This document shows, one piece after another, positions 3,168 to 63,146 of a stretch of 64,000 bases of DNA. The DNA comes from an uncultured Candidatus Saccharibacteria bacterium (GTDB lineage Bacteria > Patescibacteriota > UBA1384 > DTJR01): assembly GCA_964487045.1 (NCBI GenBank), contig CAZAOT010000001.1, positions 151,863 to 215,862 on the forward strand, read 5' to 3'. Under the pieces are notes generated by a model. The model saw nothing but the letters and a program-made list of their open reading frames with translations. It did no database searches and was not told where the DNA came from. Position 1 is the stretch's first letter; every line of letters starts with the position of its first letter. The position numbers were made by a program, and so were the translations under genes.

Positions 3168-4235
3168 CTAGCCCCAACTGATCTTAAGAGCCAGGCGACT
3201 CCTGCGATGCGCAAATGCACTGAAAACCTTTGATAGAGCCTCTGGAACATTAAAGGTTGTTACAGTGCGTTCGCAGTAGAACGCCAGATTCTGACCGTAA
3301 TGGCTGCAGTCAGTATGTGCAGCTAACTCGATCATATCCGTCAGAGAGCGACTGACGCTCGTCCGACTTTCGACCGACGTATAGATTCCGTAGATTGTGT
3401 CTGGAACATCAAGCTCGCGCAGTGTCGCGAACAAGGTCCTAGCGTCGTAAGTAGCACAATTACCGAGCTCGCGTATCTCGTTGCAGAGCAGATCGAGTCG
3501 CTCGGCGGGATCCTCAGGGAGGGGTGCAGGTGTGTCAAAGCAAGGCTGATGCAGTTCGGACCATGCCGCTACTGCGAGGAAAGCAAGAGTCCACCTGGGC
3601 TTCTTGATCAGGGAGTCTTGGACGATGATATAGATAGAACCATCCTCCCTGAACTCGAGATCCTGCAGGCTCTTGTAGGCGTCCTGCAGGAGACCGATCG
3701 CATCCACGTATACGGGGCTGGGTCCAGTCCCACACTGGATGCTCTCGTACTTGGGCCAGCTCTCATCGATACAGAGCTGGTAGAGCTTGCGAATGGGGAT
3801 CTGCTCCAGGTACGGAATCTCAAGCAGGAGTTTATTAAGCTCCGTAGCCTGTTCCTGGGTCATGTGGTTCAAATACCACTGCTGGGCGGCCCAGATAACA
3901 TCGTTCCACTCGTAGCTCGGGTCCGAAAACGGGCCTTGGCAATGCCAGCCGTACTGCGAAGTAGCGAGCTTGATCGCTTGTTCGATCACCATAGAACTCC
4001 TGTGAATCGAATCCACGAGCACAACCACGGTCCGTCTATTGAGCTGTCTTCCGAACAAGATGAGCTGCTCGGCAGGAAACCGCTCCATTTCGGGAGCATT
4101 CGACAGCAGGATCTCGAGCTGCTGCTCGTAGTAGGTCTGGTCGCCGTCTTTGGGCTGATCGGTCATTTCATGTACCTGCTTTCTATCGGCGTTCTTGTTG
4201 AAGCCAGCTACTCGGGCATGTGCAGGTCGCGCCAT
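3168..4235 (-). CDS. hypothetical protein in a GC-rich island (start uncertain; the alternative Met gives ...4169)
   Basis: Long ORF in ~56% GC DNA flanked by ~40% GC genes. No recognisable domain. The antisense ORF 3549..4241 is taken as a GC artefact. Confidence 0.5.
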   Translation of the reverse strand: MARPAHARVAGFNKNADRKQVHEMTDQPKDGDQTYYEQQLEILLSNAPEMERFPAEQLILFGRQLNRRTVVVLVDSIHRSSMVIEQAIKLATSQYGWHCQGPFSDPSYEWNDVIWAAQQWYLNHMTQEQATELNKLLLEIPYLEQIPIRKLYQLCIDESWPKYESIQCGTGPSPVYVDAIGLLQDAYKSLQDLEFREDGSIYIIVQDSLIKKPRWTLAFLAVAAWSELHQPCFDTPAPLPEDPAERLDLLCNEIRELGNCATYDARTLFATLRELDVPDTIYGIYTSVESRTSVSRSLTDMIELAAHTDCSHYGQNLAFYCERTVTTFNVPEALSKVFSAFAHRRSRLALKISWG

Positions 4236-4879
4236 GCCTGAGCTGCGAGCATGATCGGAGGTAAGACATGGAGATAGTGAATCTCGTGCATAATGCCTTG
4301 ACTACGAAGATATAGAATTCCCTCCGCCCGATTCCATTCTCGCCTGAAAGCAGGAGAGAGAACAAGGTAGTACAGCTCAGGGAGTCTAAGAGAAAGAACG
4401 CTTCTATCACCATCGGTTGATGTGAAACCACTGAAGCTAGTCGTCCCAGTGCTCGAGGAGCACTTGAGAAGAGTCGTGAGCGGGAAGCGGTCAGTTGTCG
4501 GAGCGCCAAGAAGCAAGTTGCGTTCCTCTTCATCCAACTCCTGTACCGCTTCGTAGAGAAGCTTGAGCGTGGGGGCGATCACGGCCATCTTCGAGAAACG
4601 GATGGCGACGACTGCTTCCCACCACTTGTCGGCGTAGATGAAGTCATCTATGCCTTCGTGCCTGACTCGGTAGTAGAATGCTCCGCCGAACGGTTCAGGT
4701 ATGATAGTGGTGGTGGTATTCAGCAGCACCTGCAAGACCTCTTCGACAGGGTTTAGCGAGGTCCTGACCAGGATACAGCTGGACAAGCCAGCTTCAACGC
4801 CTGCTTCAGCGAGCTCGGTAGCGGTGATCTCTCGTCTGCCGAGCGCTAGATCAAGAAGCGTCTGTCGGAATTGTTCCAT
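4208..4879 (-). CDS. hypothetical protein in a GC-rich island (start set at MEQFRQ..., behind GGGAGGA RBS)
   Basis: The track ORF 4208..4984 was shortened to the Met preceded by GGGAGGACATTGACATG. The leader upstream is conserved with that of the next gene. Confidence 0.5.
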   Translation of the reverse strand: MEQFRQTLLDLALGRREITATELAEAGVEAGLSSCILVRTSLNPVEEVLQVLLNTTTTIIPEPFGGAFYYRVRHEGIDDFIYADKWWEAVVAIRFSKMAVIAPTLKLLYEAVQELDEEERNLLLGAPTTDRFPLTTLLKCSSSTGTTSFSGFTSTDGDRSVLSLRLPELYYLVLSPAFRREWNRAEGILYLRSQGIMHEIHYLHVLPPIMLAAQAWRDLHMPE

Positions 4880-4950
4880 GTCAATGTCCTCCCATTTTGG
4901 GTGGTTTCTAATGCAAGATTGCATAAGGGGAAATAATATCATTTTTGTAA
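4880..4950 (-). promoter_or_regulatory. Conserved leader copy A, including the palindrome ATGCAAGATTGCAT (4911-4924)
   Basis: About 70 nt aligns with 6104-6175 (copy B): ...CCATTTTGG..TTCTAATGCAAGATTGCATAAGGGGAAATAATATCATTTT.. It contains a 6-2-6 inverted repeat ATGCAA-GA-TTGCAT. Confidence 0.45.
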
Positions 4951-5026
4951 AAAAAAAGAAAGCCACCCAGAGTGCTTGGGGCACGGAGGGTGGCTTGAAA
5001 TCAGTCGCGCAAGTGGACTTGGCCAG

Positions 5027-6103
5027 CTAGTCGGGGTGCTTGGCGAGCCACTGGTTCAGGGCTTCGAACACCTGAATCCAGGGCGAGCCTGCGAGGATAT
5101 AGACCTCGCCGGGCGTGTCGTGGTACCAGATCTTCATGCTGCCGTCAGCTTGAAGATCGCACTTCACGACAGAAGGAGCGATTTCCTCCATGATCTGGAG
5201 GGTATTCAGCACAACCGTCTTGTCGTTCAGCTGGGCCTCGACGTGATCAGACAGACCAGCTATGCGAGCTAGACTACGGATCTCGTAGTAGTCCGGATCC
5301 TCCTGGTCCGGCACCTCATTGAGGTAGTCGAGAAGCGTCTGCATCGTAGGCGCTACCGGCAAGTCGCCTGGTGCGTGCTTAATCGCCCAAAGACGGGCGA
5401 CGAGCAGAACGATGTAGTAGCGCGCCATACTGAGATTGTCCTCACGGATCTCCCAGTGCCCGAGTGGCGTCTCCAGGGAAATGTGCCCTGTCGAGATCTC
5501 GCAAGGGAAAGCGAAGCCGAGGACAAGCTCGATGGCCTTCTCGGCGCTGATGGTCGTATAGCCTTGGCAGTCGCCGTGCACGAAGTGCAGCTTGAAGGTC
5601 CCGCTCTCACAGAGGCGCAGTGCCTCGTTGATGGGGAAATTCTGTAGATCTGCCCACTTCTTGATCTCATCTAGATCGCAGGTGCGGCCAGCTAACTCGA
5701 GCATGCGCTCGAGTTCGTCACGTGATTGCGGAGGTATTTCAGTACCTTTCTGCCCTGTAGGGGCGGGGAAGATTTCGGTCGGGACTGAAATGCCCCGCCT
5801 GATGCAGATGGCGACAAGTGCGTCGCGCCATCGTCCAACCTCGAGCAATGTGCTTTCAAGCAAAATCGCACTAGGCTCCGTTGCCGGAAAACCCATGCGG
5901 TTATTGTAGAGAGCGTCGGCAAAAAGCGTTCGAATCGACCAAGCCTTCTGTTTGGAATTGGGCAGTTTGATCTCCGGGGGAAAGCCAGCCGCGATGCCTA
6001 CTTCGATGATGCGCTCCAGTTGGAACGCTCCACTTTCGCAGGCCTCGCGGCAAAGCTCAGAATACTCCTGCTCGGCTCGCGATTGTTGTTCTCTAGCATC
6101 CAT
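5027..6103 (-). CDS. hypothetical protein in a GC-rich island
   Basis: 358-aa ORF in ~57% GC DNA. The start ATG is preceded by GGAGAAAGTTGACAT, the same RBS context as the neighbouring gene. No recognisable domain. Confidence 0.55.
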   Translation of the reverse strand: MDAREQQSRAEQEYSELCREACESGAFQLERIIEVGIAAGFPPEIKLPNSKQKAWSIRTLFADALYNNRMGFPATEPSAILLESTLLEVGRWRDALVAICIRRGISVPTEIFPAPTGQKGTEIPPQSRDELERMLELAGRTCDLDEIKKWADLQNFPINEALRLCESGTFKLHFVHGDCQGYTTISAEKAIELVLGFAFPCEISTGHISLETPLGHWEIREDNLSMARYYIVLLVARLWAIKHAPGDLPVAPTMQTLLDYLNEVPDQEDPDYYEIRSLARIAGLSDHVEAQLNDKTVVLNTLQIMEEIAPSVVKCDLQADGSMKIWYHDTPGEVYILAGSPWIQVFEALNQWLAKHPD

Positions 6104-14952: not shown

Positions 14953-16005
14953 ATGATGAATATATTTTCTTTTTCCAAATCTGCCCAGCGACAGACCAAA
15001 ATTATCGCTACAATTGGACCGGCTACTTCAAGCGAGTCCGTTTTGAAAAAATTGATGTTAGAGGGCATGGATATTGCCAGATTTAATTTTTCGCATGGTA
15101 CTAAGGAAGAATTTGCGGCATGGGCCAAATTAATTAGAAAGCTAGCCAAAAGGCTTAAAAAAGAAGTTTTGATTTTGCAAGATCTCCAGGGCCCAAGAAT
15201 TAGAGTAGGTAAGCTCAATCATGAGGGACGCCACATTGATTCCGGCCAGGAAGTTAAGCTCAACTTTGGTGATGAATTTCACCGAAATGACATTCCAGTT
15301 CAGACAGACTTAGAAGTTGCACTCAAAAAGGATCATACGATTTTGATCGATTCTGGACTAATCGAATTAAAAGTTAAAAAAATTGAAGGCAAGAGAGTTG
15401 TCTGTAAAGTAATTGTTGGTGGGGCGCTTCACTCAGGCAAAGGATTGAATTTTCCTGACACTCCAACTCAAGAGGCTTTCACTCAAAAAGACGAAGAAGA
15501 CTTGGCTTTTGGTCAACAAATTGGAGTTGATATGGTTGGTCTTTCATTTGTGGAAAATGCCCAAGATATTATTTCCTTAAGAGAAAAAATCTCAGCAAAG
15601 ACAAAAATTGTATCAAAAATTGAAAGGCCTCAGGCAGTTCATAATTTCGCTGAAATTTTAGATGTATCTGATGCGATCATGGTTGCTCGTGGTGACCTTG
15701 GCGTTGAGATACCGATTGAGAAATTACCATTTTTACAAAAAAGAATTATTAGAAGGTGCCGAACTGCAAACAAGTTTGTGATTGTTGCTACCGACATGAT
15801 GGCTTCGATGGTTTCTTCACCGAGACCAACCAGGGCTGAAGTGCTGGATATCGCAAATGCAGTTCTCGACGGTGCCGATGCAGTTATGCTTTCAAACGAG
15901 ACTGCGGTAGGAAAATATCCTATCCAGACTATTTCGACAATGCGAAAGATCGTCGAAGAAACAGAAAATTTCAAAAAGTCTCAAGAACTATCGAGTTTGC
16001 TCTAA
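14953..16005 (+). CDS. pyk: pyruvate kinase, short form lacking the C-terminal allosteric domain
   Basis: KIIATIGPAT..., MVARGDLGVEIP, and MLSNETAVGKYP motifs. It is 350 aa versus ~470 typical. Confidence 0.9.
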   Translation: MMNIFSFSKSAQRQTKIIATIGPATSSESVLKKLMLEGMDIARFNFSHGTKEEFAAWAKLIRKLAKRLKKEVLILQDLQGPRIRVGKLNHEGRHIDSGQEVKLNFGDEFHRNDIPVQTDLEVALKKDHTILIDSGLIELKVKKIEGKRVVCKVIVGGALHSGKGLNFPDTPTQEAFTQKDEEDLAFGQQIGVDMVGLSFVENAQDIISLREKISAKTKIVSKIERPQAVHNFAEILDVSDAIMVARGDLGVEIPIEKLPFLQKRIIRRCRTANKFVIVATDMMASMVSSPRPTRAEVLDIANAVLDGADAVMLSNETAVGKYPIQTISTMRKIVEETENFKKSQELSSLL

Positions 16006-16164
16006 GCCATACGATTGACTTGGCAAGTACTTTGTGCTACGCTAGAATGCACTTAAGCACATTTATATGTGTGATCATGGTTTCAAGCTAAAGAGCTGGG
16101 AGGGCTCAGTTAGCTGAAGCTAGGCAGTGTACGAACAGCTTGTCCACCATTGGAGGGTGATTTG

Positions 16165-16404
16165 ATGTCAGATGCTTTCGCGATCGATGGAGTCGGTCCT
16201 GAGCTGGAGTTGAAGCTTGATCCTGACGAGGTATCGAGGGCATATCGCCTCGCGATCCGCCACGTCAAGAAGCAGGAGAGCAGGATCGCACGCCACGCGA
16301 AGAGATCGGCAGTGAAGAGTCGCAAGCTGCCACCCCGTACTCGGGGAGGCGAGGGAGTATTCCGGACGGCGCACGCTGTCCGGGCTGCAAGTCCGAGGCG
16401 GTAG
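16165..16404 (+). CDS. hypothetical small basic protein (GC-rich island)
   Basis: ATG 7 nt after GGAGGG. ~60% GC. Arg/Lys-rich C-terminus. Followed by a hairpin. Confidence 0.35.
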   Translation: MSDAFAIDGVGPELELKLDPDEVSRAYRLAIRHVKKQESRIARHAKRSAVKSRKLPPRTRGGEGVFRTAHAVRAASPRR

Positions 16405-16420
16405 AACCGCCTCTACATGA

Positions 16421-16452
16421 GAATCTGGCCGGTGGGGAGCTCACGCTCCGCA
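16421..16452 (+). terminator. hairpin terminator
   Basis: GGCCGGTG-n16-CACCGGCC followed by TTTTCT. Confidence 0.4.
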
Positions 16453-16545
16453 CCGGCCTTTTCTAAAGATCATTTATTAAAATTAAAGTAAAAGAAAGCC
16501 GCCTCAAAGAGGCGGCTTGGGGTGTCATTTAGTTCGTGCCGATTG

Positions 16546-17421
16546 CTACTCGAGCCAATCGCGCATCCGAGCCATCGTTTGATCGATGGCGTTGTTGGTG
16601 GGGATCTTGCCCTGTGGGTCGGGATACCCGAGGTACTGGCAAGTTTCCTCGTGCGACCAGCTGCATATTAGCTGTCGAAGCGCGACGTACAGTGCGCAAA
16701 AACGTCCCATCTGACTGATCCGCCAGACATGGTAGAATCCGATCGCATTTTCGGAACAATGAACGTACTCGGCCTCATTGTCAAAGCGTTCGTCTGGGTG
16801 AAACTGGCTCTCGCAGTAGTTCTGGGCGAGAGTTGTCAGTAAGCCATCTGCGATGACTTGCTTGCGACAATCGGGGCAGGAAGCGAGTGCTTGGTAGGCA
16901 CGTTCGCCTTGTCCCCGCCTAATCTGGCTCTGACATAAGATCCACAGCCAGTGCCAGCAGTCGCCACCTAACCATTCGGGTTCTTCGATGTCAACTCCTC
17001 CTGGGTATGGGTGGTCAAGGTTATAGTATCCAAATGAAAGATGGGGGCGGTCACAGAGATGCTGCGCTTCTTCTACAGTGAATTCAGCCGGGCCGTTGAA
17101 AGCGAAATGTACGTCATTCAGGTCGCCGATGAGATCGGCGAAAAGCTCCATGACAGGAGAAGCCAGAATTAGCCGCTCGGTCAGGCCACGCAAGCGCGCA
17201 CTGGCGCGAGCCATGGGCCAGAAAAAGCCAAGTCGTCTTGTCGCCGAGATAGTCGGCTTGTGGTGGCCGAGCCCCTGGTCACCGGTCTTAGCCCGAACGA
17301 ACGCTTCTCGGAATGCTTCCACTGGCGCCCCATTCATTGCTAAGTCATGGATGACATACCAGGCGAAGTGGATCGGAGTTGTAAACCCGTTTTCTAGATT
17401 CTCGCTTTGCACGTGCATCAC
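16546..17421 (-). CDS. hypothetical protein (GC-rich island)
   Basis: 291-aa ORF in ~57% GC DNA. No recognisable domain. The hairpin AAGCCGCCTC-aaa-GAGGCGGCTT lies just past its 3' end. Confidence 0.5.
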   Translation of the reverse strand: MMHVQSENLENGFTTPIHFAWYVIHDLAMNGAPVEAFREAFVRAKTGDQGLGHHKPTISATRRLGFFWPMARASARLRGLTERLILASPVMELFADLIGDLNDVHFAFNGPAEFTVEEAQHLCDRPHLSFGYYNLDHPYPGGVDIEEPEWLGGDCWHWLWILCQSQIRRGQGERAYQALASCPDCRKQVIADGLLTTLAQNYCESQFHPDERFDNEAEYVHCSENAIGFYHVWRISQMGRFCALYVALRQLICSWSHEETCQYLGYPDPQGKIPTNNAIDQTMARMRDWLE

Positions 17422-17558
17422 CTCAAGACATATTTGTGAGGATACTACGTTATGAAAATCTATACCACAATTCGGCTACTAAATCAATCGAGAAAGTTTC
17501 TACTGGCTTCTTGAGAAATTACTCCTGATCTGATAAACTTTTGTTCGTAATCGCAAAT

Positions 17559-17793
<235 letters not shown>

Positions 17794-17893
17794 AATAGCC
17801 ACTAAAGGCTATTTTTGTTATATTTAGGCGAGATAAAAAGGAGACAATATAGATCTTAATAATATTAAATTAAATCCACCCCTTGAGTTTATT

Positions 17894-18487
17894 GTGGATC
17901 CAGATAATAACAACAGAAGATTAGGAATTTGTATAAAAGAAATTTCTGCGGATGGAAAGAGGGATCGCTTGCATCAATTCGATATAGGTAGCGGAAGTTA
18001 TCTCGGCTATCGTGATCGCGAGCTGAATCCTGGAACTGGACTTATGCTTTCTTCTCGAGGGATGAGTTATTCATACAAGGGAACTCTTGCCAATGGAGAC
18101 AAACGTTTTTATAAACGGGAGCTTGGTCCTATTTATCAAGTCGGAAAAAAGAAGGTAGTTTCGGGAAAGTTTTTGCCTGCAATTAAACTTGAAGGTGATA
18201 CGGTGGATTTAGTTAGAATTGAAATGTTACCATCGTTGGTGAAAGAGGAAACATCTAGAGAGCGATTGGAAGCACGAGCTGAATCAGAGGGGCGAACGTT
18301 AGCTGAAGTTTATGGTGATCGGGACGGGAGTCTAAAGGACGACCCAAGCGAGCCAATTTCTCAAGATCAGAAGAAGCAAGAGCCTCTGCCTGAGGCTGAA
18401 TTTGATGCTGAGGGTAAGGCTAAATTTGATTTCGAAGAGGAACCGAAAAACCCCGATCCAGAAACTCCAGGTATGGGAACCTATTGA
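17894..18487 (+). CDS. hypothetical protein with an acidic C-terminus (GTG start)
   Basis: 197-aa ORF. Nothing recognisable. Confidence 0.35.
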   Translation: MDPDNNNRRLGICIKEISADGKRDRLHQFDIGSGSYLGYRDRELNPGTGLMLSSRGMSYSYKGTLANGDKRFYKRELGPIYQVGKKKVVSGKFLPAIKLEGDTVDLVRIEMLPSLVKEETSRERLEARAESEGRTLAEVYGDRDGSLKDDPSEPISQDQKKQEPLPEAEFDAEGKAKFDFEEEPKNPDPETPGMGTY

Positions 18488-38436: not shown

Positions 38437-38757
38437 AAGAGTGACTAGTTTTCCACAGGCAAGCGTGACCAACCCGAACAAACTTACATAACTTAACTTC
38501 GATATAGAGTAAGTTATATAACATTTTGATAATCTATATAACATATTTGACAAGTCGCACGCTTGATGGTTCTATGGATTTACATTAAATAAGTGTGAGA
38601 TGGGTAAGCGCGGTTAAATACCGTCACAGTCCCGCTACCGTAAAGTCGGAAAACCACTCATACATTCATCCCGAGGAGGAATTATGCAGCATACTTAGGT
38701 GTTTTTTAACTAGCTCAAAAGAGCTTTTTTTAGTCTCTTAAAAATATAAGGAGTAAA

Positions 38758-39111
38758 ATGAAGAAAATTAGAATTATACTTATCGCGTTATCTATCTTGG
38801 TCTTTCCAGTATTTCTAGCAGGCTGTCAGAATACAGCTAATCCTACGCTGCAAACGAGTGTTGCGCCTAGCACAGAAGTAACTTATTCTGGCGTAGAGGG
38901 TAAAACGGTTTACGAATTGCTTAAGGATTCACATCAAGTCGAGGCTGATGAGTCTTCTATGGGAGTTTTGGTCAAATCAATTGATGGCGTAAGCCAAACT
39001 GACAAGGAGTTTTGGCTATACGATATCAACGGTCAGCAGTCTAATCTTGGAGCGGACAAGCAGGCGACGAAAGATGGCGATGTTGTTCACTGGCAATTAA
39101 AAGGCTTCTAA
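38758..39111 (+). CDS. lipoprotein (signal peptide + lipobox LAGC), unknown function
   Basis: MKKIRIILIALSILVFPVFLAGCQN. Confidence 0.55.
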   Translation: MKKIRIILIALSILVFPVFLAGCQNTANPTLQTSVAPSTEVTYSGVEGKTVYELLKDSHQVEADESSMGVLVKSIDGVSQTDKEFWLYDINGQQSNLGADKQATKDGDVVHWQLKGF

Positions 39112-47217: not shown

Positions 47218-47292
47218 CGGCCTGTAGCTCATTGGTAGAGCGACGCTCTTATAAGGCGTATGTAGATGGTTCGATCCCATCCAGGCCGACCA
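47218..47292 (+). tRNA. tRNA-Ile (anticodon UAU as encoded), CCA encoded
   Basis: CGGCCTG / CAGGCCG acceptor, anticodon stem ACGCT/GGCGT (one G.U), loop CTTATAA, T-arm GATGG-TTCGATC-CCATC. Confidence 0.75.
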
Positions 47293-47508: not shown

Positions 47509-47633
47509 ATCTTGTCCAATATCTACATTTAGGATTAATGGTTCATTTAGTAGATATACGCTCGTGACTTGACAAATGGAAAATAATGTTATATAATAGT
47601 TATAGTAACATTACGAACGTGAGGGAGGGGAAA

Positions 47634-48134
47634 ATGAACGATAAGACAAAAATTGCACTAATTTCAGCTTCAGCTCTAACCATTGCTTTAATTTCTTCTC
47701 TAATTGTTTATAAAAACACTCATCTTTTTGCTAAGGAACAGGATTACTCAAATGAATATTCGCTTTCCCTAGTTAATAACGAAAGAACTGCTCATAATTT
47801 AAAAACTCTTTCTTGGAATGATCAGCTTGAAAAAGCTGCCGAGGATAAGATAAATGATATTTTCGCTAAGAACTATTTTGATCATACTGCCCCCGACGGC
47901 ACTAAGGCTTGGAATTTTATTTTAAGCGAAGGTTACGATTATAAGGTTGCTGGTGAAAACCTAGCTGTTGATTTTACCAATATTTCAGATGCTTTTAACG
48001 CTTGGAAGAATAGTCAGTCTCACTATAAAAATATCGTTTCTAGTGAATATACTGATTACGCTATAGCTGAAAAGGAGGGAATACTTAATGGACAAGAAAC
48101 TAAGGTTTATGTTCAGATTTTTGCCACAAAATAA
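47634..48134 (+). CDS. CAP/SCP (cysteine-rich secretory protein, YkwD-like) domain protein, membrane-anchored
   Basis: Start at MNDKTKIAL, after GAGGGAGGGG. N-terminal TM, then the SCP region ...FDHTAPDG...GENLA...AWKNSQSHYKNI. Confidence 0.75.
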   Translation: MNDKTKIALISASALTIALISSLIVYKNTHLFAKEQDYSNEYSLSLVNNERTAHNLKTLSWNDQLEKAAEDKINDIFAKNYFDHTAPDGTKAWNFILSEGYDYKVAGENLAVDFTNISDAFNAWKNSQSHYKNIVSSEYTDYAIAEKEGILNGQETKVYVQIFATK

Positions 48135-48312
48135 ATGGTTCCTAGGAGGGAATTATGAGAAGTTTAATATATAAGAAAAGTTACAAAAGAATCCGGGATC
48201 CTGATTGACCCGGATTCTTTTATTGACAGTAATAATTAAAGTGTTACATTAATCCAAGCTATGGCAACGGCTATGGCCCCTATACGACAAGGGGCCAATT
48301 TTATTAAAAACT

Positions 48313-49950
48313 ATGAAAATTAAACTCTTATCACCGGTTTTTGTACTAATATATCTTTTATTTTCATTGCCAATTTCGGTTAAGGCGGAATCATATGTCG
48401 ATTGGTCCAAAGTCGAGATACTGCCAAGCTCCAGTTCTGCTACGCTAGGGTTTATAAATTCTACCAGTACGGGCTTTCGAGTTAACCTGGGTCTTTCTGA
48501 TTCGTATAAACCAGATAGTTTGCATTTATTTATCGGCTCCTGCGTTAATCCAGTAGACTCAGAATCGTTCGATAACGGTTCGGAATATTATCTTTCGACT
48601 AACACTGCTTCTTTGAGCGAGCTTAAAGCGTTGCTTCTTAATTGTTCTGGCAAACAAGAGGGCGAGAACATTGTCGAAGTAAAAGGTTTTACTGGTGGGC
48701 TATATCAAACTATCTATTCAGATATAATCACTTCTGATTTTACTGCTCCAGTAGGAATTTTCTCTATAGAGGCAATGAATGGGTATATCTATAAGGTAGG
48801 CGAGAAGATTGATATTGTTTTTGACCCGAATGTTAATGCTGATGTTGATGTAATTACTGGATACGTTAACGATCGTGAATTGACTTTTAACAAATCGGGA
48901 AATAAGTTTATTGCGAGCTATGTTATTTCTGAAGGCGGAGCGGATATTACTGACGAATTGATTTTAGAAAACATATCAATTATCGATCTAGCAGGTAATT
49001 TACAAAGCATCGCCCAGGAATCAATCCCGATTAATTTTTCAATTGATGCCAACTCTCCAGTTGTGAATATAACTTATCCATATGAAAACGAAGTAATAAG
49101 CAAATCACAATTCGAGTTCATTTATCTTGCAAGTGGCTATGAAACAATTAGTTTTTATCTAAATGACAAACTGATAGCTAGCCCAATGCTTAGTAATTTA
49201 ACGACCGGAGATTATATACTGAGGATCGTTGCTCTTGATAAGGCGGGCAATCTTACTGTTGCGCAGAGGAGCTTCAGGGTTGATATTATTGGTCCAGCCT
49301 TATCGATTATTTCTAACCAGGGCGAAGTAGCTGAGGGGGATGAGTATTCTTTGTCCGGAGAAAGCGAACCATTTTCGGAAGTAGAACTAACGATTGGAAG
49401 CAAAGTTTATAGCACAATATCTGATGATTTGGGTAAATTTAATTTTAAAATAAATGACTTGAAGCAGGGGAGTTATGATTATTATCTTTGTGCATACGAC
49501 CAATATGGTAATATTTCTCTATTAAATTTAGGTGTACTGACCATAAAGGCTAAACCCGTTACTGACTCTCAAAGTGCAGTGATTGCTAGGGCAGGTGTTA
49601 TAGGAGATTATGAATATGATAAAGTCTCGGTTGTTTCTGTTTCACTTGAGCCTCCTGAAGACCAAAAAGTGGCCAAACAAGGTAAGATTATCTCTTCTTC
49701 GGATGAGCGCACGATGACAGGCGCGAATTATAATAGCTGGTTGATATTGATCGGTCTTGTAATAGTCTCGGTAGCTATCTCATCAGCAGGATATTATGGC
49801 TATTCATTGATTGGCAACAACGGCAAAGCGACTGAACTGGAAACTGAGATTGCGGCGTCAGACGAGATCCCTGACGCTGAGCATGAAGATATTCAGACTA
49901 ACTCCAATTCTGAATCGATCGAAGAAGAAAAAACTGATCTTAGATGGTAA
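48313..49950 (+). CDS. secreted Ig-like repeat protein with a C-terminal TM anchor and acidic tail
   Basis: Signal peptide, repeated beta-rich modules, and ...SWLILIGLVIVSVAISSAGYYG near the C-terminus. Confidence 0.5.
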   Translation: MKIKLLSPVFVLIYLLFSLPISVKAESYVDWSKVEILPSSSSATLGFINSTSTGFRVNLGLSDSYKPDSLHLFIGSCVNPVDSESFDNGSEYYLSTNTASLSELKALLLNCSGKQEGENIVEVKGFTGGLYQTIYSDIITSDFTAPVGIFSIEAMNGYIYKVGEKIDIVFDPNVNADVDVITGYVNDRELTFNKSGNKFIASYVISEGGADITDELILENISIIDLAGNLQSIAQESIPINFSIDANSPVVNITYPYENEVISKSQFEFIYLASGYETISFYLNDKLIASPMLSNLTTGDYILRIVALDKAGNLTVAQRSFRVDIIGPALSIISNQGEVAEGDEYSLSGESEPFSEVELTIGSKVYSTISDDLGKFNFKINDLKQGSYDYYLCAYDQYGNISLLNLGVLTIKAKPVTDSQSAVIARAGVIGDYEYDKVSVVSVSLEPPEDQKVAKQGKIISSSDERTMTGANYNSWLILIGLVIVSVAISSAGYYGYSLIGNNGKATELETEIAASDEIPDAEHEDIQTNSNSESIEEEKTDLRW

Positions 49951-49981
49951 ACATTTGCTCAGCTTTGGTATAATTCAAGTT

Positions 49982-50380
49982 ATGGAAGGCGAACAATCAA
50001 ATTTAAAGCCGAAGCGTTTTTTTGTTGCTCCGCTTTTAATACTTCTAGCTTTGACTTATATTGGATTTTTACTTTATCAGTCGGTCTATGTTAATTACCA
50101 AACTAACAAAAAAATTTCTGCCTTAGAGGATGCGCTTCGTGATAATAAAATCCGAAAACAAAATCTAGAAGTTCTGATAGCTTATTATAAAACTTTTGCT
50201 TTTCAAGAACTTGAAGCACGCAAAAAACTCGGCCTTAAACTACCCGGTGAAAAGGTTGTAAAAGTAGATATCCCTGAGGAAACTAAGTTAAAACTTACTG
50301 AAAGTGAACCCATTGTAACTACTAAGACGAAGTCGAATTTAGAATACTGGATCGACTATCTTTTCTATCCCGATGTTTAA
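49982..50380 (+). CDS. FtsB/DivIC-like septum formation initiator (TM + coiled coil)
   Basis: Start moved to MEGEQSN. TM FVAPLLILLALTYIGFLLY, then a heptad-rich segment ending KKLGLKLPGEKVVKV. Confidence 0.5.
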   Translation: MEGEQSNLKPKRFFVAPLLILLALTYIGFLLYQSVYVNYQTNKKISALEDALRDNKIRKQNLEVLIAYYKTFAFQELEARKKLGLKLPGEKVVKVDIPEETKLKLTESEPIVTTKTKSNLEYWIDYLFYPDV

Positions 50381-50385
50381 AACAC

Positions 50386-50414
50386 TTGACAGTAGGAGTG
50401 CAACTGGTATACAT
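50386..50414 (+). promoter_or_regulatory. sigma70-like promoter TTGACA-17-ATACAT upstream of the TasA-like gene; the 5' UTR carries the palindrome AACCAAT-cat-ATTGGTT (50436-50452)
   Basis: Hexamers and spacing as stated. There is a 125-nt leader. Confidence 0.4.
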
Positions 50415-50538
50415 TCAGCTCAATGGAAAAAAACCAATCATATTGGTTAAAAAATAAGTAAACGCACCCTTTTGGGTTGCGCTTGTTTTGTCTAATGGGG
50501 GTCGACTTTAGGCAAATAAATAAAGAAGTGGAGAAAAA

Positions 50539-51156
50539 ATGTTAAAAATATTAAAGAGTTTAATGGTTATTGTGGCTGTTGCAGCTGTTGCAACTAGTGC
50601 TACTGGTGCTTACTTTAGTGATACTGAAACTTCAACTGGCAATAGTTTTACCGCTGGAACATTAGATCTTAATGTCGACGGTGGTGATACTAATGTGGTG
50701 AAGTTTAATGTCTCAAATATGAGCCCAGGTGACCAAAGAGTTGGAACATGGCGACTTGCTAATGTAGGATCAATAAATGGATATATTGATCTTCATAATA
50801 TCTTGGTTTCTAGCCAAGAAAATGGATGCAATAACGCTGAGACCGACGCTGGTGATGTGACCTGTGATAATCCTGGAGCGGGACAGGGAGAGTTACAAAA
50901 TGTCTTGAGTCTTTCCAAGTTATTCTGGGATACAGATTGTAATGGTTGGGTTGGAGCTGGTGAAACTACGATCTTCGATGGTAAGCTCGGCACTATTGCA
51001 ACTGACTATGACTCTAACGTAGCCCTTAACGCTGGACAGGAAAAGTGTATCACTGGTCAATTCAACTGGTGGAGCACTGCTGATGACAACAAGGCGCAAG
51101 GTGATTCGGCAAACTTGGATATGACCTTCGAGATTGCTGAAACTACTGGCCAATAA
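50539..51156 (+). CDS. TasA/camelysin-family secreted protein (SipW-cognate class signal peptide)
   Basis: After the signal: GAYFSDTETSTGNSFTAGTLDL, the hallmark N-terminus of the TasA/CalY family. Confidence 0.7.
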   Translation: MLKILKSLMVIVAVAAVATSATGAYFSDTETSTGNSFTAGTLDLNVDGGDTNVVKFNVSNMSPGDQRVGTWRLANVGSINGYIDLHNILVSSQENGCNNAETDAGDVTCDNPGAGQGELQNVLSLSKLFWDTDCNGWVGAGETTIFDGKLGTIATDYDSNVALNAGQEKCITGQFNWWSTADDNKAQGDSANLDMTFEIAETTGQ

Positions 51157-51208
51157 TTCAGTTTCACGATCCAGCCCTCATTGGGGGCTGGAGAAGAGGC
51201 ATTGAATT

Positions 51209-51760
51209 ATGAAAAAGTTTTGGACAATTTTCTTAAATACGATCTTAGTCATTTTTCTTTTAGTTGGAGCTTTGCTGATTATCTCTCTTCTACCAATAAA
51301 AAATAACTATCGCATCTTTTCGGTTATGTCTGGTTCGATGGAACCTTCAATTCCAATTGGGAGCTTAATTATTGTTAAGCCAGTAGGTGAATATAAAACA
51401 AGTGACATAATTACTTTCAAATCAACGCAGAAAGAGAATGACTATACCACGCACAGAATAAATGAAATTAAGGAAAAAGACGGATTAAAGTCATACGTCA
51501 CCAAGGGAGATGCCAACGAATCTCCGGATTTTGAGAATGTTAGTACCGACAGGATTGTAGGCAAGCAGATTATTACCATTGCTCTTGTCGGCTATATTTT
51601 ATGGTTTGTTAAAACGTTACCCGGTCTTATAGTTATTATTATTGTTCCAGCATTGATAATTATTTACGATGAAGTAGATAAGATAAAGAAAGAAGTAAAG
51701 ATCTTTAAAAAAAATGGAAGAAAAAAGAAAGGTAAAAATGTTAAAAATTCAAAGTCTTAA
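51209..51760 (+). CDS. sipW: signal peptidase I, SipW (archaeal/ER) type
   Basis: N-terminal TM, MSGSMEPSIPIGSLIIV (catalytic Ser box), TKGDANESPD, C-terminal TM and a Lys-rich tail. Confidence 0.8.
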   Translation: MKKFWTIFLNTILVIFLLVGALLIISLLPIKNNYRIFSVMSGSMEPSIPIGSLIIVKPVGEYKTSDIITFKSTQKENDYTTHRINEIKEKDGLKSYVTKGDANESPDFENVSTDRIVGKQIITIALVGYILWFVKTLPGLIVIIIVPALIIIYDEVDKIKKEVKIFKKNGRKKKGKNVKNSKS

Positions 51761-52298
51761 GGGGTTATTTTTCCCAATAGCATTTCTTTTCATTGCCGTC
51801 TCGTTTACTGGGGCTCACTTCTCTGACAATGTTTCTACTTCTAGTAACACTATTACTGCAGCTACTTGGTCGGTCTCCCCGGCAAATATTGTTATTAATG
51901 AATTTATGGCCAACCCAGCCGAATCTGACGAAAGCTATTATGAATGGGTTGAGCTATTAAATACTGGCGGAAGTAGCATCAATATTGATGGATGGGTTCT
52001 TTATGATTCATTTGACGCTCACGCTCTTCCGATATCATCATCAAATGTTGCTGGAGGCTCAACGATTGTTAGTCCCGGTGGTTACGCAGTAGTAGGTAGG
52101 AATGGAGACATCGATTTTTCTCTAAATAATTCTAACGATACTGTTAGATTGTATAATGGCCCGATCGGCATTGGATCCTTGATTGAGACCAATTCATATC
52201 TTAATACTATTGAAGGTAAGACTTGGGCTAGAGTGCCAAACGGAACGGGAGCGTTTACCGATGGCCACGATCAAACACCAGGAGGTCCAAATGTTTAA
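51738..52298 (+). CDS. SipW-cognate signal peptide protein with a lamin-tail (LTD) domain
   Basis: Signal ...SFTGAHFSDNVSTSSNTITAATW. Then VINEFMANP...EWVELLNTGGSSINIDGWVL (LTD signature). Confidence 0.6.
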   Translation: MLKIQSLKGLFFPIAFLFIAVSFTGAHFSDNVSTSSNTITAATWSVSPANIVINEFMANPAESDESYYEWVELLNTGGSSINIDGWVLYDSFDAHALPISSSNVAGGSTIVSPGGYAVVGRNGDIDFSLNNSNDTVRLYNGPIGIGSLIETNSYLNTIEGKTWARVPNGTGAFTDGHDQTPGGPNV

Positions 52299-53181
52299 AA
52301 AAATTGCCATAATATCAGCCTTGATTGTCTCGTCGTGCTTAATTTCAGCCAGAGCTCAAGCTGCGACAATTACGCCAGGACCACTTACGATTACATATGA
52401 TGGTGATGGTGCTATATTCTCAGAATCAAATCTATCGCCAGGAAACATAGTTAAAAGAACTTTATCAGTTACTAATAACGGAAGAATTGCCCATAATTTT
52501 GCCATGTCTACAAACAATGTTAGCGGCGATCTTGGTTCTGTGATTACACTATCTGCCATAGAAAATGGAAACATCATCTGGACAAATACACTTTTAGAGC
52601 TACAGAATCTTTCAACTCAGAGTAAATTTGTAACGAACTTGAATCCCGGGGAAACTAAAACGATTGCCCTCGAAGCTAACTTTCCTAGTTCTTCCGGATC
52701 TAGTTTAGCCGGCAAGAATGTAACATTTGACATAGTATATGGCACAGAAGAAGCGGAGCCTGCCGCTAGAGTATTCGGTATTTTCTCTACAAATCCTATC
52801 TCCAGTGCGACTCCAGCAGCTTCGCCGAGTGCTTCTGTGGCTGCATCCTCTACACCCTCGGGAGAGGTAAAAGGAGAGTCAACTGGCGAACAAGAATCTG
52901 GGCTTAACCCATGGTATCTCGTAATTGCTCCAGCAGCAGTTCTGTTCTCGGTGGTTTTTCTGCCGGAATTCGCCTTAGCAGGAGGGCTGGCCGCAGCAAC
53001 AGGAGGAATCGCGTATGTTCTTGGTTATTCCTCGCGCGGAGACATGGATCCGCTAACCTTCTATGTTATTCTTGCTCTCGAGATAATTACGCTAATTGTG
53101 CTTGCTTATTATCTACTTCATCATGATAATAGGGCATCACGAAAAATCCGTGGGCACTATCACAGACTCAGACTCCGCTAA
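52291..53181 (+). CDS. secreted protein with a C-terminal double-TM anchor
   Basis: Start at MFKKIAII (RBS GGAGG). Signal peptide, beta-rich domain, Ser/Ala linker, C-terminal hydrophobic segments. Confidence 0.5.
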   Translation: MFKKIAIISALIVSSCLISARAQAATITPGPLTITYDGDGAIFSESNLSPGNIVKRTLSVTNNGRIAHNFAMSTNNVSGDLGSVITLSAIENGNIIWTNTLLELQNLSTQSKFVTNLNPGETKTIALEANFPSSSGSSLAGKNVTFDIVYGTEEAEPAARVFGIFSTNPISSATPAASPSASVAASSTPSGEVKGESTGEQESGLNPWYLVIAPAAVLFSVVFLPEFALAGGLAAATGGIAYVLGYSSRGDMDPLTFYVILALEIITLIVLAYYLLHHDNRASRKIRGHYHRLRLR

Positions 53182-53265
53182 GATCTAAATTAGTAATTTT
53201 TAAGTAACTTGATTTATTGTCAAAGATCTCTTTTAAATGATAAAATAGATAGGTGAAGGAGGGGA

Positions 53266-62412: not shown

Positions 62413-62489
<77 letters not shown>

Positions 62490-63071: not shown

Positions 63072-63146
63072 GGTAGCATAGCTCAGTGGTAGAGCGAAGG
63101 AATCATAACCCTTAGGTCGGAGGTTCGAGCCCTCCTGCTACCACCA
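63072..63146 (+). tRNA. tRNA with CAU anticodon (elongator Met or lysidine-Ile2), CCA encoded
   Basis: GGTAGCA/TGCTACC acceptor, loop ATCATAA, T-arm GGAGG-TTCGAGC-CCTCC. Flanked by the inverted repeats CCCCGTTAATTA (63057-68) and TAATTAACGGGG (63152-63). Confidence 0.85.

What the first reader, a model, noticed from the sequence alone, without database searches (positions are those of the whole stretch)
50386..53181. SipW signal peptidase flanked by three SipW-cognate secreted proteins (TasA/camelysin-like, a lamin-tail-domain protein, a C-terminally anchored protein)
The gene after the promoter encodes a protein whose mature N-terminus, AYFSDTETSTGNSFTAGTLDL, is the hallmark of the TasA/CalY matrix-fibre family. 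Next is an ER/archaeal-type signal peptidase (SipW). Then comes a protein with the same class of signal peptide (..AHFSDNVSTSSNTITAATW) fused to a lamin-tail domain (VINEFMANP...WVELLN...IDGWVL), and then a third secreted protein with C-terminal TM anchors. In Bacillus the tapA-sipW-tasA operon builds extracellular amyloid-like fibres. Here the equivalent module sits directly upstream of the type IV pilus cluster, suggesting a surface fibre or attachment toolkit relevant to an epibiotic lifestyle.
Basis: partly seen in the sequence, partly recalled or inferred. Interest (0 to 1): 0.55.

Follow-up and report, generated by a model that had tools for sequence, protein, structure and literature searches.

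The report
TasA-type fibre operon with anchor subunit
This is a four-gene operon, in an uncultured Patescibacteria-like bacterium, for a TasA-type surface fibre: a main subunit, its own signal peptidase, a probable tip protein that keeps only the linking strand, and a membrane-anchored base protein that lacks it.

Summary
Four co-directional genes lie at 50539-53181 behind a conserved promoter.

- **P1:** passes the curated TasA/camelysin model (PF12389) and the SipW-signal model (TIGR04088). Its predicted fold matches only TasA structures.
- **P2:** an archaeal/ER-type signal peptidase I. It passes TIGR02228 and has SEC11-like Ser/His/Asp motifs.
- **P3:** a SipW-type signal and a TasA-like donor strand joined directly to a lamin-tail domain, with no TasA core.
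- **P4:** Profile comparison gives 95.8% probability. It has an 11-residue gap exactly where the donor strand should be, then a disordered linker and C-terminal membrane helices.

P1 has both strand and groove, P3 has the strand only, and P4 has the groove only. I infer a polar fibre: P3 nucleates it and sits at the tip, P1 polymerises, and P4 terminates and anchors it in the membrane.

The gene order major subunit, SipW, strand-only protein, strand-less anchored paralogue recurs in 16 of 80 genomes sampled. A covarying RNA hairpin after P1 masks the sipW ribosome-binding site.

The type IV pilus adjacency is seen only in the nearest relative. P4 is not shown to be a SipW substrate. This is a new variant of a known kind, and the assembly model is untested.

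The parts
50385..50415 (+). Promoter-like site: -35 box CTTGACA and -10 box TACATT, 18-nt spacer
   Evidence: Consensus scan scored 10 of 12. Both hexamers are conserved in the window, L089, L086 and L006, while the flanking sequence diverges (alignment A4).
50463..50492 (+). Terminator-like hairpin inside the roughly 120-nt 5' leader (ACGCACCC-TTTT-GGGTTGCGC, then TTGTTTTG). Possible attenuator or leader element.
   Evidence: The stem is kept through compensatory changes in L089 and L086. It appears in the minimum-free-energy fold. It matches no Rfam family. Its function is not established.
50539..51156 (+). P1: major TasA/CalY-family subunit. It has a SipW-type signal peptide, an N-terminal donor strand (about residues 25-37) and a beta-sandwich core with four Cys.
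   Evidence: PF12389 scores 56.6 bits, covering profile positions 6-195 of 196. TIGR04088 scores 31. A family profile hits TasA 8aur and 5of1 at E 6e-5. The AF2 model has pLDDT 83, with residues 22-37 disordered. Foldseek matches 8aur at E 2e-5 and 5of2 at E 2e-3. 438 homologues were found, mostly Patescibacteria.
51153..51210 (+). Two-tier RNA hairpin between P1 and sipW. The outer stem pairs with the sipW Shine-Dalgarno GAGG (51196-51199) and the first bases of the start codon.
   Evidence: Fold energy is -28.8 kcal/mol, z -5.45, with 0 of 200 shuffles as stable. The same architecture is seen in 5 other loci, z -4.2 to -5.95. RNAalifold predicts 21 pairs, 15 of them with compensatory double changes.
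51209..51760 (+). P2: SipW-like (archaeal/ER-type) signal peptidase I, with N- and C-terminal membrane segments and a Lys-rich tail
   Evidence: TIGR02228 scores 104.5 against a cut-off of 51.85. The Bacillus SipW equivalog NF046067 scores 106, below its cut-off of 190. It aligns to SEC11C and SEC11A (E 5.5e-5 and 7.8e-4) with SGSMEP, HR and KGDxN conserved.
51714..52298 (+). P3: SipW-type signal, then a donor-strand-like segment (AHFSDNVSTSSNTITAATW), then a lamin-tail domain. It has no TasA core and no C-terminal membrane segment. Proposed nucleator and tip subunit. Alternative start at 51738.
   Evidence: PF00932 scores 60.1 bits. In a profile search with P1's N-terminus it is the second-best of 260 window ORFs, E 0.0045. 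The family consensus is GAYFSD.VS...N.FTAGTW. hhalign against the P1 family gives probability 98.6%. All 9 gene-3 proteins tested from other Patescibacteria loci carry a lamin-tail domain.
52291..53181 (+). P4: ordinary signal peptide, TasA-like beta-sandwich without a donor strand (residues 25-160), disordered Ser/Ala/Pro/Thr linker (160-206), conserved GEVKGE motif, 2-3 membrane helices and a conserved basic tail. Proposed terminator and membrane anchor.
   Evidence: hhalign of the P1 family against the P4 family gives probability 95.8%, E 7.6e-9, with an 11-residue gap opposite P1 residues 24-34. The AF2 model's best PDB match is the TasA fibre 8aur, E 6.7e-6. The family has 1208 clusters at E<=1e-3. 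Of 132 top representatives, 115 have a membrane segment after the core and 0 have the donor motif.

Best explanation
The locus is a TasA/CalY-type donor-strand-exchange fibre operon.

**Processing.** P2, the SipW-like peptidase, removes the special signal peptides of P1 and P3. This exposes N-terminal strands of the form YFSD-x-E-x-S-x-x-N-x-F.

**Assembly.** P1 has both a donor strand and an acceptor beta-sandwich, so it can polymerise head to tail as B. subtilis TasA does. [quoted passage not shown] It can therefore only plug the groove of the first P1. That would nucleate the fibre, as proposed for TapA and AbpB, and place the lamin-tail domain at the distal tip as a binding module. P4 has only the acceptor domain, on a flexible stalk ending in membrane helices. 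It can therefore only receive the last P1 donor strand. That would stop growth and tie the fibre to the cytoplasmic membrane.

**Expression.** A conserved hairpin after P1 occludes the sipW ribosome-binding site. This would favour an excess of the major subunit over the other three proteins.

**What is shown, computationally.** Family memberships, the complementary strand-only and groove-only architectures, their conservation across genomes, and the RNA structure.

**What is inferred.** Fibre formation, polarity, order of assembly, cleavage by P2, and the ligand of the lamin-tail domain.
For: **Family membership**
- P1, P2 and P3 pass the curated cut-offs for PF12389, TIGR04088, TIGR02228 and PF00932.
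- The P1 and P4 models both have the TasA fibre 8aur as best PDB match.
- P1 residues 22-37 are disordered in the monomer model, as expected for a strand donated to a neighbour.

**Complementary architectures**
- In B. subtilis TasA the donor strand is residues 28-38, which is 11 residues. TapA is proposed to supply the first strand (PMC9674648).
- P4 lacks exactly 11 residues opposite P1's AYFSDTETSTG, while signal peptide and core still align.
- The P3 family's N-terminus aligns with P1's signal and donor strand at high confidence.

**Conservation across genomes**
- In 80 genome loci, 25 gene-3 proteins carry the donor motif and none has a C-terminal membrane segment.
- 33 proteins are P4-like with no donor motif, and 26 of them have C-terminal membrane segments.
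- 16 loci have both types.
- In the 1.84-billion-protein library, 115 of 132 top P4-like representatives are anchored and none has a donor motif.
- Gene-3 donor strands are slightly more similar to the major subunit of their own locus than to those of other loci: 0.602 against 0.572, with 157 of 20000 permutations reaching the observed value.

**Expression**
- The P1-sipW hairpin shows covariation across six loci.

**Precedent**
- C. perfringens BsaA oligomers are membrane-anchored, and a BsaB paralogue with an LPXTG motif is suspected to be the anchor (PMC11580942).
Against: - There is no experimental or multimer-model evidence for strand insertion.
- The window's own P3 donor segment is diverged (H for Y, I for F). 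It fails TIGR04088. With a donor-only profile it scores E 0.32.
- The P4 model is only moderately confident: mean pLDDT 63, with 73-88 in the core. TM-scores to TasA are 0.34-0.42.
- P4 sits below the Pfam cut-off for PF12389 (13.8 against 22.5).
- 7 of 33 P4-like proteins lack a detected C-terminal membrane segment.
- The within-locus donor similarity effect is small.
- Which peptidase cleaves P4 is unknown.
Confidence: 0.6

Rival explanations
1. This is a released biofilm-matrix system like B. subtilis tapA-sipW-tasA. P1 is secreted and polymerises away from the cell. P4 is not a fibre subunit. Instead it is a membrane-bound chaperone or holder that keeps P1's donor strand occupied until release, or a sensor.
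For: TasA and CalY are matrix proteins. Accessory proteins such as TapA and CapP act as chaperones rather than structural anchors (PMC10151520 and PMC13082335 titles and abstracts). The cytoplasmic tail of P4 (HHDNRASRKIRG.HRLRIR) is more conserved than a passive anchor requires.
Against: A groove-only domain on a 45-residue stalk with membrane helices is what an anchor needs. The architecture is conserved in 115 of 132 representatives. Patescibacteria are not known to build thick matrices (my own knowledge).
Confidence: 0.2
2. The module is functionally part of the neighbouring type IV pilus system. For example, P1, P3 and P4 could be cargo exported through the cell wall by the pilus machinery, as reported for the Bsa proteins of C. 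perfringens.
For: The pilus-related gene block (pilN/O-like genes, then pilB, pilT and pilC) starts 85 nt after P4 in the window. The same arrangement is seen in L089. In C. perfringens, secretion of BsaC, and partly of BsaA, depends on type IV pilus genes (PMC11580942).
Against: No PilB, PilT or PilC homologue lies within 10 kb of the module in L086, L088, L006, L012, L013 or L043, or in any other Patescibacteria locus sampled. A separate promoter-like site precedes the pilus genes at 53217-53246.
Confidence: 0.1
3. P1 is a camelysin-type metalloprotease (the literal Pfam name is Peptidase_M73). Alternatively, P1 and P3 are ribosomally synthesised peptide precursors (the JGI label for TIGR04088 proteins).
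For: These are database names only: PF12389 is called 'Camelysin metallo-endopeptidase', and JGI uses 'predicted ribosomally synthesized peptide with SipW-like signal peptide'.
Against: P1 has a single His and no HExxH motif (sequence). Its fold matches the TasA fibre subunit. The peptidase label is considered a likely misidentification (PMC11580942). P1 and P3 are folded proteins of about 200 aa, not short peptides.
Confidence: 0.03

Closest known systems
Bacillus subtilis tapA-sipW-tasA (and B. cereus sipW-tasA-calY with CapP)
   Same: It has a dedicated archaeal-type signal peptidase next to a PF12389 subunit with a SipW-type signal and an N-terminal donor strand. It also has a minor protein whose N-terminus mimics the donor strand (TapA there, P3 here).
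   Different: P1 and P2 fall far below the Bacillus equivalog cut-offs: NF046066 scores 27.9 against 450, and NF046067 scores 106 against 190. P3 has a lamin-tail domain rather than the TapA fold and does not match TIGR04087. Bacillus has no described donor-less, membrane-anchored TasA paralogue. The gene order is also different.
Clostridium perfringens sipW-bsaA-bsaB-bsaC
   Same: It has SipW, a polymerising TasA-like subunit, a non-polymerising TasA-like paralogue (BsaB) and a protein with a binding domain (BsaC, von Willebrand A domain). Its oligomers are membrane-associated. In other strains a BsaB-like paralogue with an LPXTG motif is a suspected anchor (PMC11580942).
   Different: Here the anchoring would be through integral membrane helices, not sortase. 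The binding-domain protein carries a donor strand. The isopeptide N-E-K triad was not assessed. Dependence on the type IV pilus is not supported by gene-order conservation.
Archaeal bundling pili (AbpA/AbpB, Pyrobaculum calidifontis)
   Same: AbpA is a TasA homologue that polymerises by donor-strand complementation. AbpB was proposed to give the first strand and to act as a distal adhesin (PMC9245690). That is the same logic proposed here for P3.
   Different: The archaeal operon has no dedicated signal peptidase. AbpB has a TapA-like fold. The neighbouring membrane proteins are not TasA paralogues.
Chaperone-usher and sortase pili (analogy only)
   Same: The fibre is built from one major subunit plus specialised first and last subunits that set polarity, tip function and anchoring.
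   Different: There is no homology and no usher, chaperone or sortase. Here the tip subunit is strand-only and the base subunit is groove-only, the reverse of FimH-type tips.

Membership tests
TasA/CalY/camelysin family (Pfam PF12389) | HMM score above the Pfam gathering cut-off over most of the domain | tested here: met
   P1 scores 56.6 bits against 22.5, covering profile positions 6-195 of 196. P4 alone scores 13.8 bits, below the cut-off. It is linked to the family only by profile-profile comparison (probability 95.8%) and by fold.
TasA/CalY/camelysin family (Pfam PF12389) | Beta-sandwich (jelly-roll) fold like the solved TasA structures | tested here: met
   The P1 model (pLDDT 83) matches 8aur_A at E 2.1e-5 and 5of2 at E 2e-3, with TM-scores 0.42-0.47 and no other hit below 1e-2. 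The P4 model matches 8aur_A at E 6.7e-6, with lower model confidence.
TasA/CalY/camelysin family (Pfam PF12389) | N-terminal donor strand directly after the signal-peptide cleavage site | tested here: met
   The P1 segment YFSDTETSTGNSF precedes TAGTLDL, which aligns to TasA FASGTLDL. This segment is disordered in the monomer model. It is absent from P4. Strand exchange itself cannot be tested with these tools.
B. subtilis TasA equivalog (NF046066) | Score above the equivalog cut-off (450 bits) | tested here: not met
   P1 scores 27.9 bits. It is a family member but not an orthologue of B. subtilis TasA.
SipW-cognate signal peptide (TIGR04088) | HMM score above the cut-off (19 bits) | tested here: met
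   P1 scores 31 bits as the full protein and 34.5 as the N-terminal 52 aa.
SipW-cognate signal peptide (TIGR04088), applied to P3 and P4 | HMM score above the cut-off (19 bits) | tested here: not met
   The window's P3 and P4 give no hit even at E<=10. P3 orthologues score 24.8 (L006) and 23.1 (L043), which pass, and 15.4, 16.2 and 14.1, which do not. JGI labels orthologue P0142 as SipW-signal. The P3 family N-terminus is homologous to P1's.
Archaeal/ER-type signal peptidase I (TIGR02228; SipW-like) | HMM score above the cut-off, and Ser/His/Asp (SEC11-type) rather than Ser/Lys catalytic motifs | tested here: met
   P2 scores 104.5 bits against 51.85. Alignment to SEC11C and SEC11A conserves SGSMEP, HR and KGDxN. 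Catalysis itself was not tested.
Bacillus SipW equivalog (NF046067) | Score above the equivalog cut-off (190 bits) | tested here: not met
   P2 scores 106 bits. It is SipW-like but not an orthologue of Bacillus SipW.
Lamin-tail domain (Pfam PF00932) | HMM score above the gathering cut-off | tested here: met
   P3 scores 60.1 bits against 34.3. The nine gene-3 proteins from other loci score 37-70 bits.
TapA (TIGR04087) | HMM score above the cut-off (80 bits) | tested here: not met
   P3 gives no hit. The P1 N-terminus scores 13.2 bits. P3 may work like TapA but is not a TapA homologue beyond the strand.
Type IV pilus system | The module co-occurs with pilB, pilT and pilC across relatives | tested here: not met
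   Adjacency is seen only in the window and in L089. It is absent in L086, L088, L006, L012, L013 and L043, and in the other sampled loci.

The most novel reading that the evidence does not exclude
Patescibacteria, and some Chloroflexota, Clostridia and archaea, build a membrane-anchored donor-strand-exchange pilus. Its polarity would be set by two complementary truncated paralogues. One is a strand-only initiator carrying a lamin-tail adhesin at the tip. The other is a groove-only terminator embedded in the membrane. This would be an appendage class distinct from type IV, sortase and chaperone-usher pili, and a second possible attachment organelle for these ultra-small cells.
Probability: 0.4. 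Interest if true: 0.65.

Novelty: new variant of a known kind. Interest (0 to 1): 0.5.

Why it matters
**What is already known.** TasA-family fibres are studied mainly as Bacillus biofilm matrix. How they start, stop and stay attached is still debated. PF12389 proteins have been listed as present in Patescibacteria (PMC9245690).

**What is new here.** I found no description of their operon logic in the searched literature. The operon gives a clean genetic statement of an assembly rule: strand-only, strand-plus-groove and groove-only paralogues in one transcription unit.

**What it makes testable.** The rule can be tested directly by multimer modelling and heterologous expression. It could explain membrane anchoring of TasA-like fibres in organisms without sortase.

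**Wider relevance.** For Patescibacteria it nominates a second surface appendage, beside type IV pili, with a recurrent lamin-tail tip whose ligand is unknown. Candidates are DNA or a host surface component.

Tried and rejected
- **Chimeric AF2 test.** I tried a single-chain 'donor-strand-complemented' prediction (P4 core, linker, P1 strand).
- **TIGR04088 on P3 and P4.** Running it on the isolated N-termini gave no hit. P3's status rests on family-level comparison instead.
- **Rfam on the 5' leader.** Only chance-level matches were found.
- **PDB sequence search with the P3 family.** It returned only designed 'Cake' repeat proteins with no passing stretch, which I judge spurious.
- **PDB sequence search with the P4 family.** TasA ranked first but at a non-significant E of 0.09.
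- **Type IV pilus linkage.** Rejected as a conserved feature.
- **Protease reading.** Rejected: P1 has one His and no HExxH motif.
- **RiPP-precursor label.** Rejected as a naming artefact.
- **Isopeptide 'lock' as in BsaA.** Asn35 is invariant and Lys55 is nearly invariant in the P1 family. Without the BsaA sequence or model coordinates I could not test this, and I make no claim.
- **Organism name.** Not recovered.
Full report
**1. What is in the sequence**

Four co-directional ORFs fill window 50539-53181.
- P1: 50539-51156, 205 aa.
- P2: 51209-51760, 183 aa.
- P3: 51714 or 51738 to 52298, 194 or 186 aa.
- P4: 52291-53181, 296 aa. Its ATG follows an AGGAGG ribosome-binding site, and gene callers on identical contigs choose the same start.

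P2 and P3 overlap, as do P3 and P4 (ATGTTTAA), so genes 2-4 are translationally coupled. The finding's left edge, 50386, is a TTGACA-18-TACATT promoter-like site. Both hexamers are conserved in three diverged relatives while the surrounding sequence is not. The same gene string occurs on five independent metagenome contigs.

**2. Identity of the four proteins**

*P1.* It passes Pfam PF12389 (56.6 bits against 22.5, nearly full length) and TIGR04088, the SipW-type signal (31 bits against 19). A profile of 19 homologues hits the two TasA structures at E about 6e-5, aligning TFtaGTLDL...NL.PG with TasA. An AlphaFold2 model built from 56 homologues has pLDDT 83 and pTM 0.71. Only residues 22-37, the cleavage site and the following strand, are disordered. 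Its only significant PDB matches are the TasA fibre 8aur (E 2.1e-5) and the TasA monomer 5of2 (E 2e-3). P1 has one His and no HExxH motif, so the 'camelysin metalloprotease' name is not a functional description. That name is regarded as a likely misidentification (PMC11580942).

*P2.* It passes TIGR02228, the archaeal-type signal peptidase I model (104.5 bits against 51.85). It falls below the Bacillus SipW equivalog cut-off (106 against 190). It aligns to human SEC11C and SEC11A with SGSMEP, HR and KGDxN conserved.

*P3.* It passes the lamin-tail domain model PF00932 (60.1 bits against 34.3).

*P4.* It has no family above cut-off. It gives weak hits to PF12389 and to the TasA equivalog (E about 0.05). 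NCBI names one of its homologues 'CalY family protein'.

**3. Complementary architectures: the main new result**

Profile-profile comparison of the P1 family (56 sequences) with the P4 family (18 sequences) gives probability 95.8% and E 7.6e-9 over 147 columns. The signal peptides align and the cores align: TAGTLDLNVDGGD...NMSPGD with TPGPLTITYDGD...NLSPGN. P4 has one 11-residue gap exactly opposite P1's AYFSDTETSTG. P4 also lacks P1's Cys-rich insert.

In B. subtilis TasA, the donor strand that links subunits is residues 28-38, the first 11 residues of the mature protein (PMC9674648). P4 is therefore a TasA paralogue with the donor strand deleted.

The P4 model has a confident beta-sandwich core (pLDDT 73-88), a disordered segment at residues 160-206, and C-terminal helices. 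Its best PDB match is again the TasA fibre, at E 6.7e-6. After the core come a Ser/Ala/Pro/Thr-rich linker, a conserved GEVKGE motif, two or three hydrophobic helices and a conserved basic tail.

P3 is the mirror image. Its family consensus begins ...SFTGAYFSD.VS...N.FTAGTW. A Thr/Pro linker and the lamin-tail domain follow, with no TasA core. hhalign of the P1 family against the P3 family gives probability 98.6% and E 9e-16, with the confident columns confined to the signal peptide and donor strand.

The window's own copy is diverged (AHFSDNVSTSSNTITAATW).
- It fails TIGR04088 even at E<=10.
- Orthologues in L006 (24.8 bits) and L043 (23.1 bits) pass.
- A profile of P1's first 37 residues ranks P3 second among 260 window ORFs, at E 0.0045. 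Nothing else scores below 0.5, and P4 scores 6.7.

So P1 has both strand and groove, P3 has the strand only, and P4 has the groove only.

**4. Conservation**

A scan of one genome per species recovered 572 stretches encoding a relative of P1. I kept 80 loci, mostly Patescibacteria, with some Dehalococcoidia, Clostridia and several archaeal orders. A TasA-like gene next to a SipW-like gene is almost universal in these loci.

I classified the genes that follow SipW.
- 25 proteins carry the donor motif. They are 151-820 aa long and none has a C-terminal membrane segment.
- 33 proteins match the P4 core without a donor motif, and 26 of them have C-terminal membrane segments.
- 16 loci have both, in the order strand-only protein then P4-like.

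All nine strand-only proteins tested from Patescibacteria loci contain a lamin-tail domain, sometimes behind Ig or fn3 domains.

A search of the 1.84-billion-representative library with the P4 profile found 1208 clusters at E<=1e-3 and 42 at E<=1e-30. Of 132 top representatives with an N-terminal P4 core, 115 have a membrane segment after it and none has the donor motif.

Donor segments of the strand-only proteins are slightly closer to the major subunit of their own locus than to those of other loci (0.602 against 0.572 identity). Only 157 of 20000 permutations reached the observed value. The effect is small but in the direction expected if both strands must fit the same groove.

**5. Most likely mechanism (inferred)**

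P2 cleaves P1 and P3 and exposes the strand. P3 can only donate, so it fills the groove of the first P1. That frees P1's own strand for the next P1, which is the nucleation role proposed for TapA and AbpB (PMC9674648; PMC9245690). It leaves the lamin-tail domain at the distal tip. P1 then adds at the cell-proximal end. P4 can only accept, so it captures the last strand, ends growth, and holds the fibre on a stalk of about 45 residues in the cytoplasmic membrane.

The polarity P3 to P1(n) to P4 follows from the architectures. The order of events does not, and it is not shown.

The role of lamin-tail domains in bacteria is unresolved. They occur in extracellular nucleases, and both DNA binding and membrane association have been suggested (PMC6085458, PMC4486849). 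The tip ligand is therefore open.

**6. Regulation seen in the RNA**

The 52-nt gap between P1 and sipW folds into a two-tier hairpin of -28.8 kcal/mol, z -5.45. Five other loci fold the same way with different stem sequences, z -4.2 to -5.95. RNAalifold finds 21 pairs, 15 of them with compensatory double changes. The outer stem pairs with the sipW Shine-Dalgarno sequence. No U-run follows the hairpin. The simplest reading is stabilisation of a P1 transcript end, damped translation of genes 2-4, or both. Either would give an excess of the major subunit.

The 5' leader also holds a terminator-like hairpin whose stem covaries in two relatives. It matches no Rfam family. I did not pursue it further.

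**7. The type IV pilus neighbourhood**

Pilus-related genes begin 85 nt downstream of P4: pilN/O-like genes, then pilB, pilT, pilC, a prepilin peptidase and pilin-like genes. The nearest relative, L089, has the same arrangement (P4 65% identical).

Other relatives do not. In L086 (P4 63% identical) an fn3/CHB_HEX protein follows the module. L088, L006, L012, L013 and L043 have no PilB, PilT or PilC homologue within 10 kb. What is conserved in the Berkelbacteria-like group is the upstream string CAP-domain protein, Ig-like surface protein, DivIC.

A report that C. perfringens Bsa proteins depend on type IV pilus genes for secretion (PMC11580942) keeps a functional link conceivable. Gene order gives no support for it.

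**8. Comparison with known systems, and novelty**

The locus works like tapA-sipW-tasA, sipW-bsaABC and the archaeal Abp pili. P1 and P2 are members of the broad families but not orthologues of the Bacillus proteins, because they fail the equivalog cut-offs. P3 is not a TapA homologue. The presence of PF12389 in Patescibacteria has been noted before (PMC9245690). NCBI already labels these proteins as TasA or CalY family.

In the searchable literature I found no description of three things: a donor-less membrane-anchored paralogue, a strand-plus-lamin-tail minor subunit, or this four-gene cassette. I therefore rate it a new variant of a known kind.

The claim that all three flanking proteins are SipW-cognate holds for two of them, and for P3 only at family level. 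The pilus 'toolkit' inference is not supported.

Noticed in passing
window 51153-51210: A strong two-tier hairpin lies between the major-subunit gene and sipW. Its outer stem covers the sipW ribosome-binding site. It is conserved with compensatory changes in six diverged loci.
   Followed up: yes
window 50385-50538: The conserved promoter hexamers are followed by a structured leader of about 120 nt. The leader contains a terminator-like hairpin (50463-50492) whose stem covaries in L089 and L086, and a second conserved element, GTCTAATGGGGGTCGACTTTAGGC. No Rfam match. It may be an attenuator or a regulatory leader.
   Followed up: partly
window 47586-50380: The upstream string is syntenic with the module in Berkelbacteria-like relatives (L006, L086, L089) but not elsewhere. 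It comprises a CAP/YkwD-domain protein, a 545-aa Ig-like surface protein with signal peptide and C-terminal membrane segment, and DivIC.
   Followed up: partly
window 52291-53181 (P4 residues 190-296): A GEVKGE motif just outside the first membrane helix and a cytoplasmic tail HHDNRASRKIRG.HRLRIR are more conserved than a passive anchor would need. This may indicate a processing site or a partner-binding site.
   Followed up: no
window 50539-51156 (P1 residues 97, 109, 133, 170; Asn35, Lys55): P1 has four Cys. One pair sits in an insert that P4 lacks. The other two Cys co-occur in a subset of homologues, which suggests disulfides. Asn35 in the donor strand is invariant and Lys55 is nearly invariant. 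A BsaA-like isopeptide lock could not be tested.
   Followed up: no
L089 5564-6601: In the nearest relative the TasA and SipW gene calls are shortened, to 145 and 142 aa. The signal-peptide region of the TasA gene carries an indel relative to the window. This is either an assembly error or decay of the genes.
   Followed up: no
window 38592-38664: A match to the AdoCbl-II (cobalamin) riboswitch aptamer above the Rfam gathering score (40.7 bits against 36.5), upstream of the ORF at 38758-39111.
   Followed up: no
window 47218-47292; 62413-62489; 63072-63146: ARAGORN calls a tRNA-Ile with anticodon TAT, which I recall is uncommon in bacteria, and two tRNA genes with anticodon CAT about 600 nt apart.
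   Followed up: no
window 4001-6000 and 16001-18000: Two 2-kb stretches have G+C of 0.55 and 0.51, against a background of about 0.40. No rRNA was detected there.
   Followed up: no
L044, L060, L065, L074, L080, L081 (Dehalococcoidia and Methanomassiliicoccales loci): The gene after SipW starts with the donor motif followed by a QAW..W.QT(T/S) motif and domains other than the lamin-tail domain. A large anchored protein follows it. The strand-only plus anchored-paralogue logic seems to extend beyond Patescibacteria with different tip domains.
   Followed up: partly
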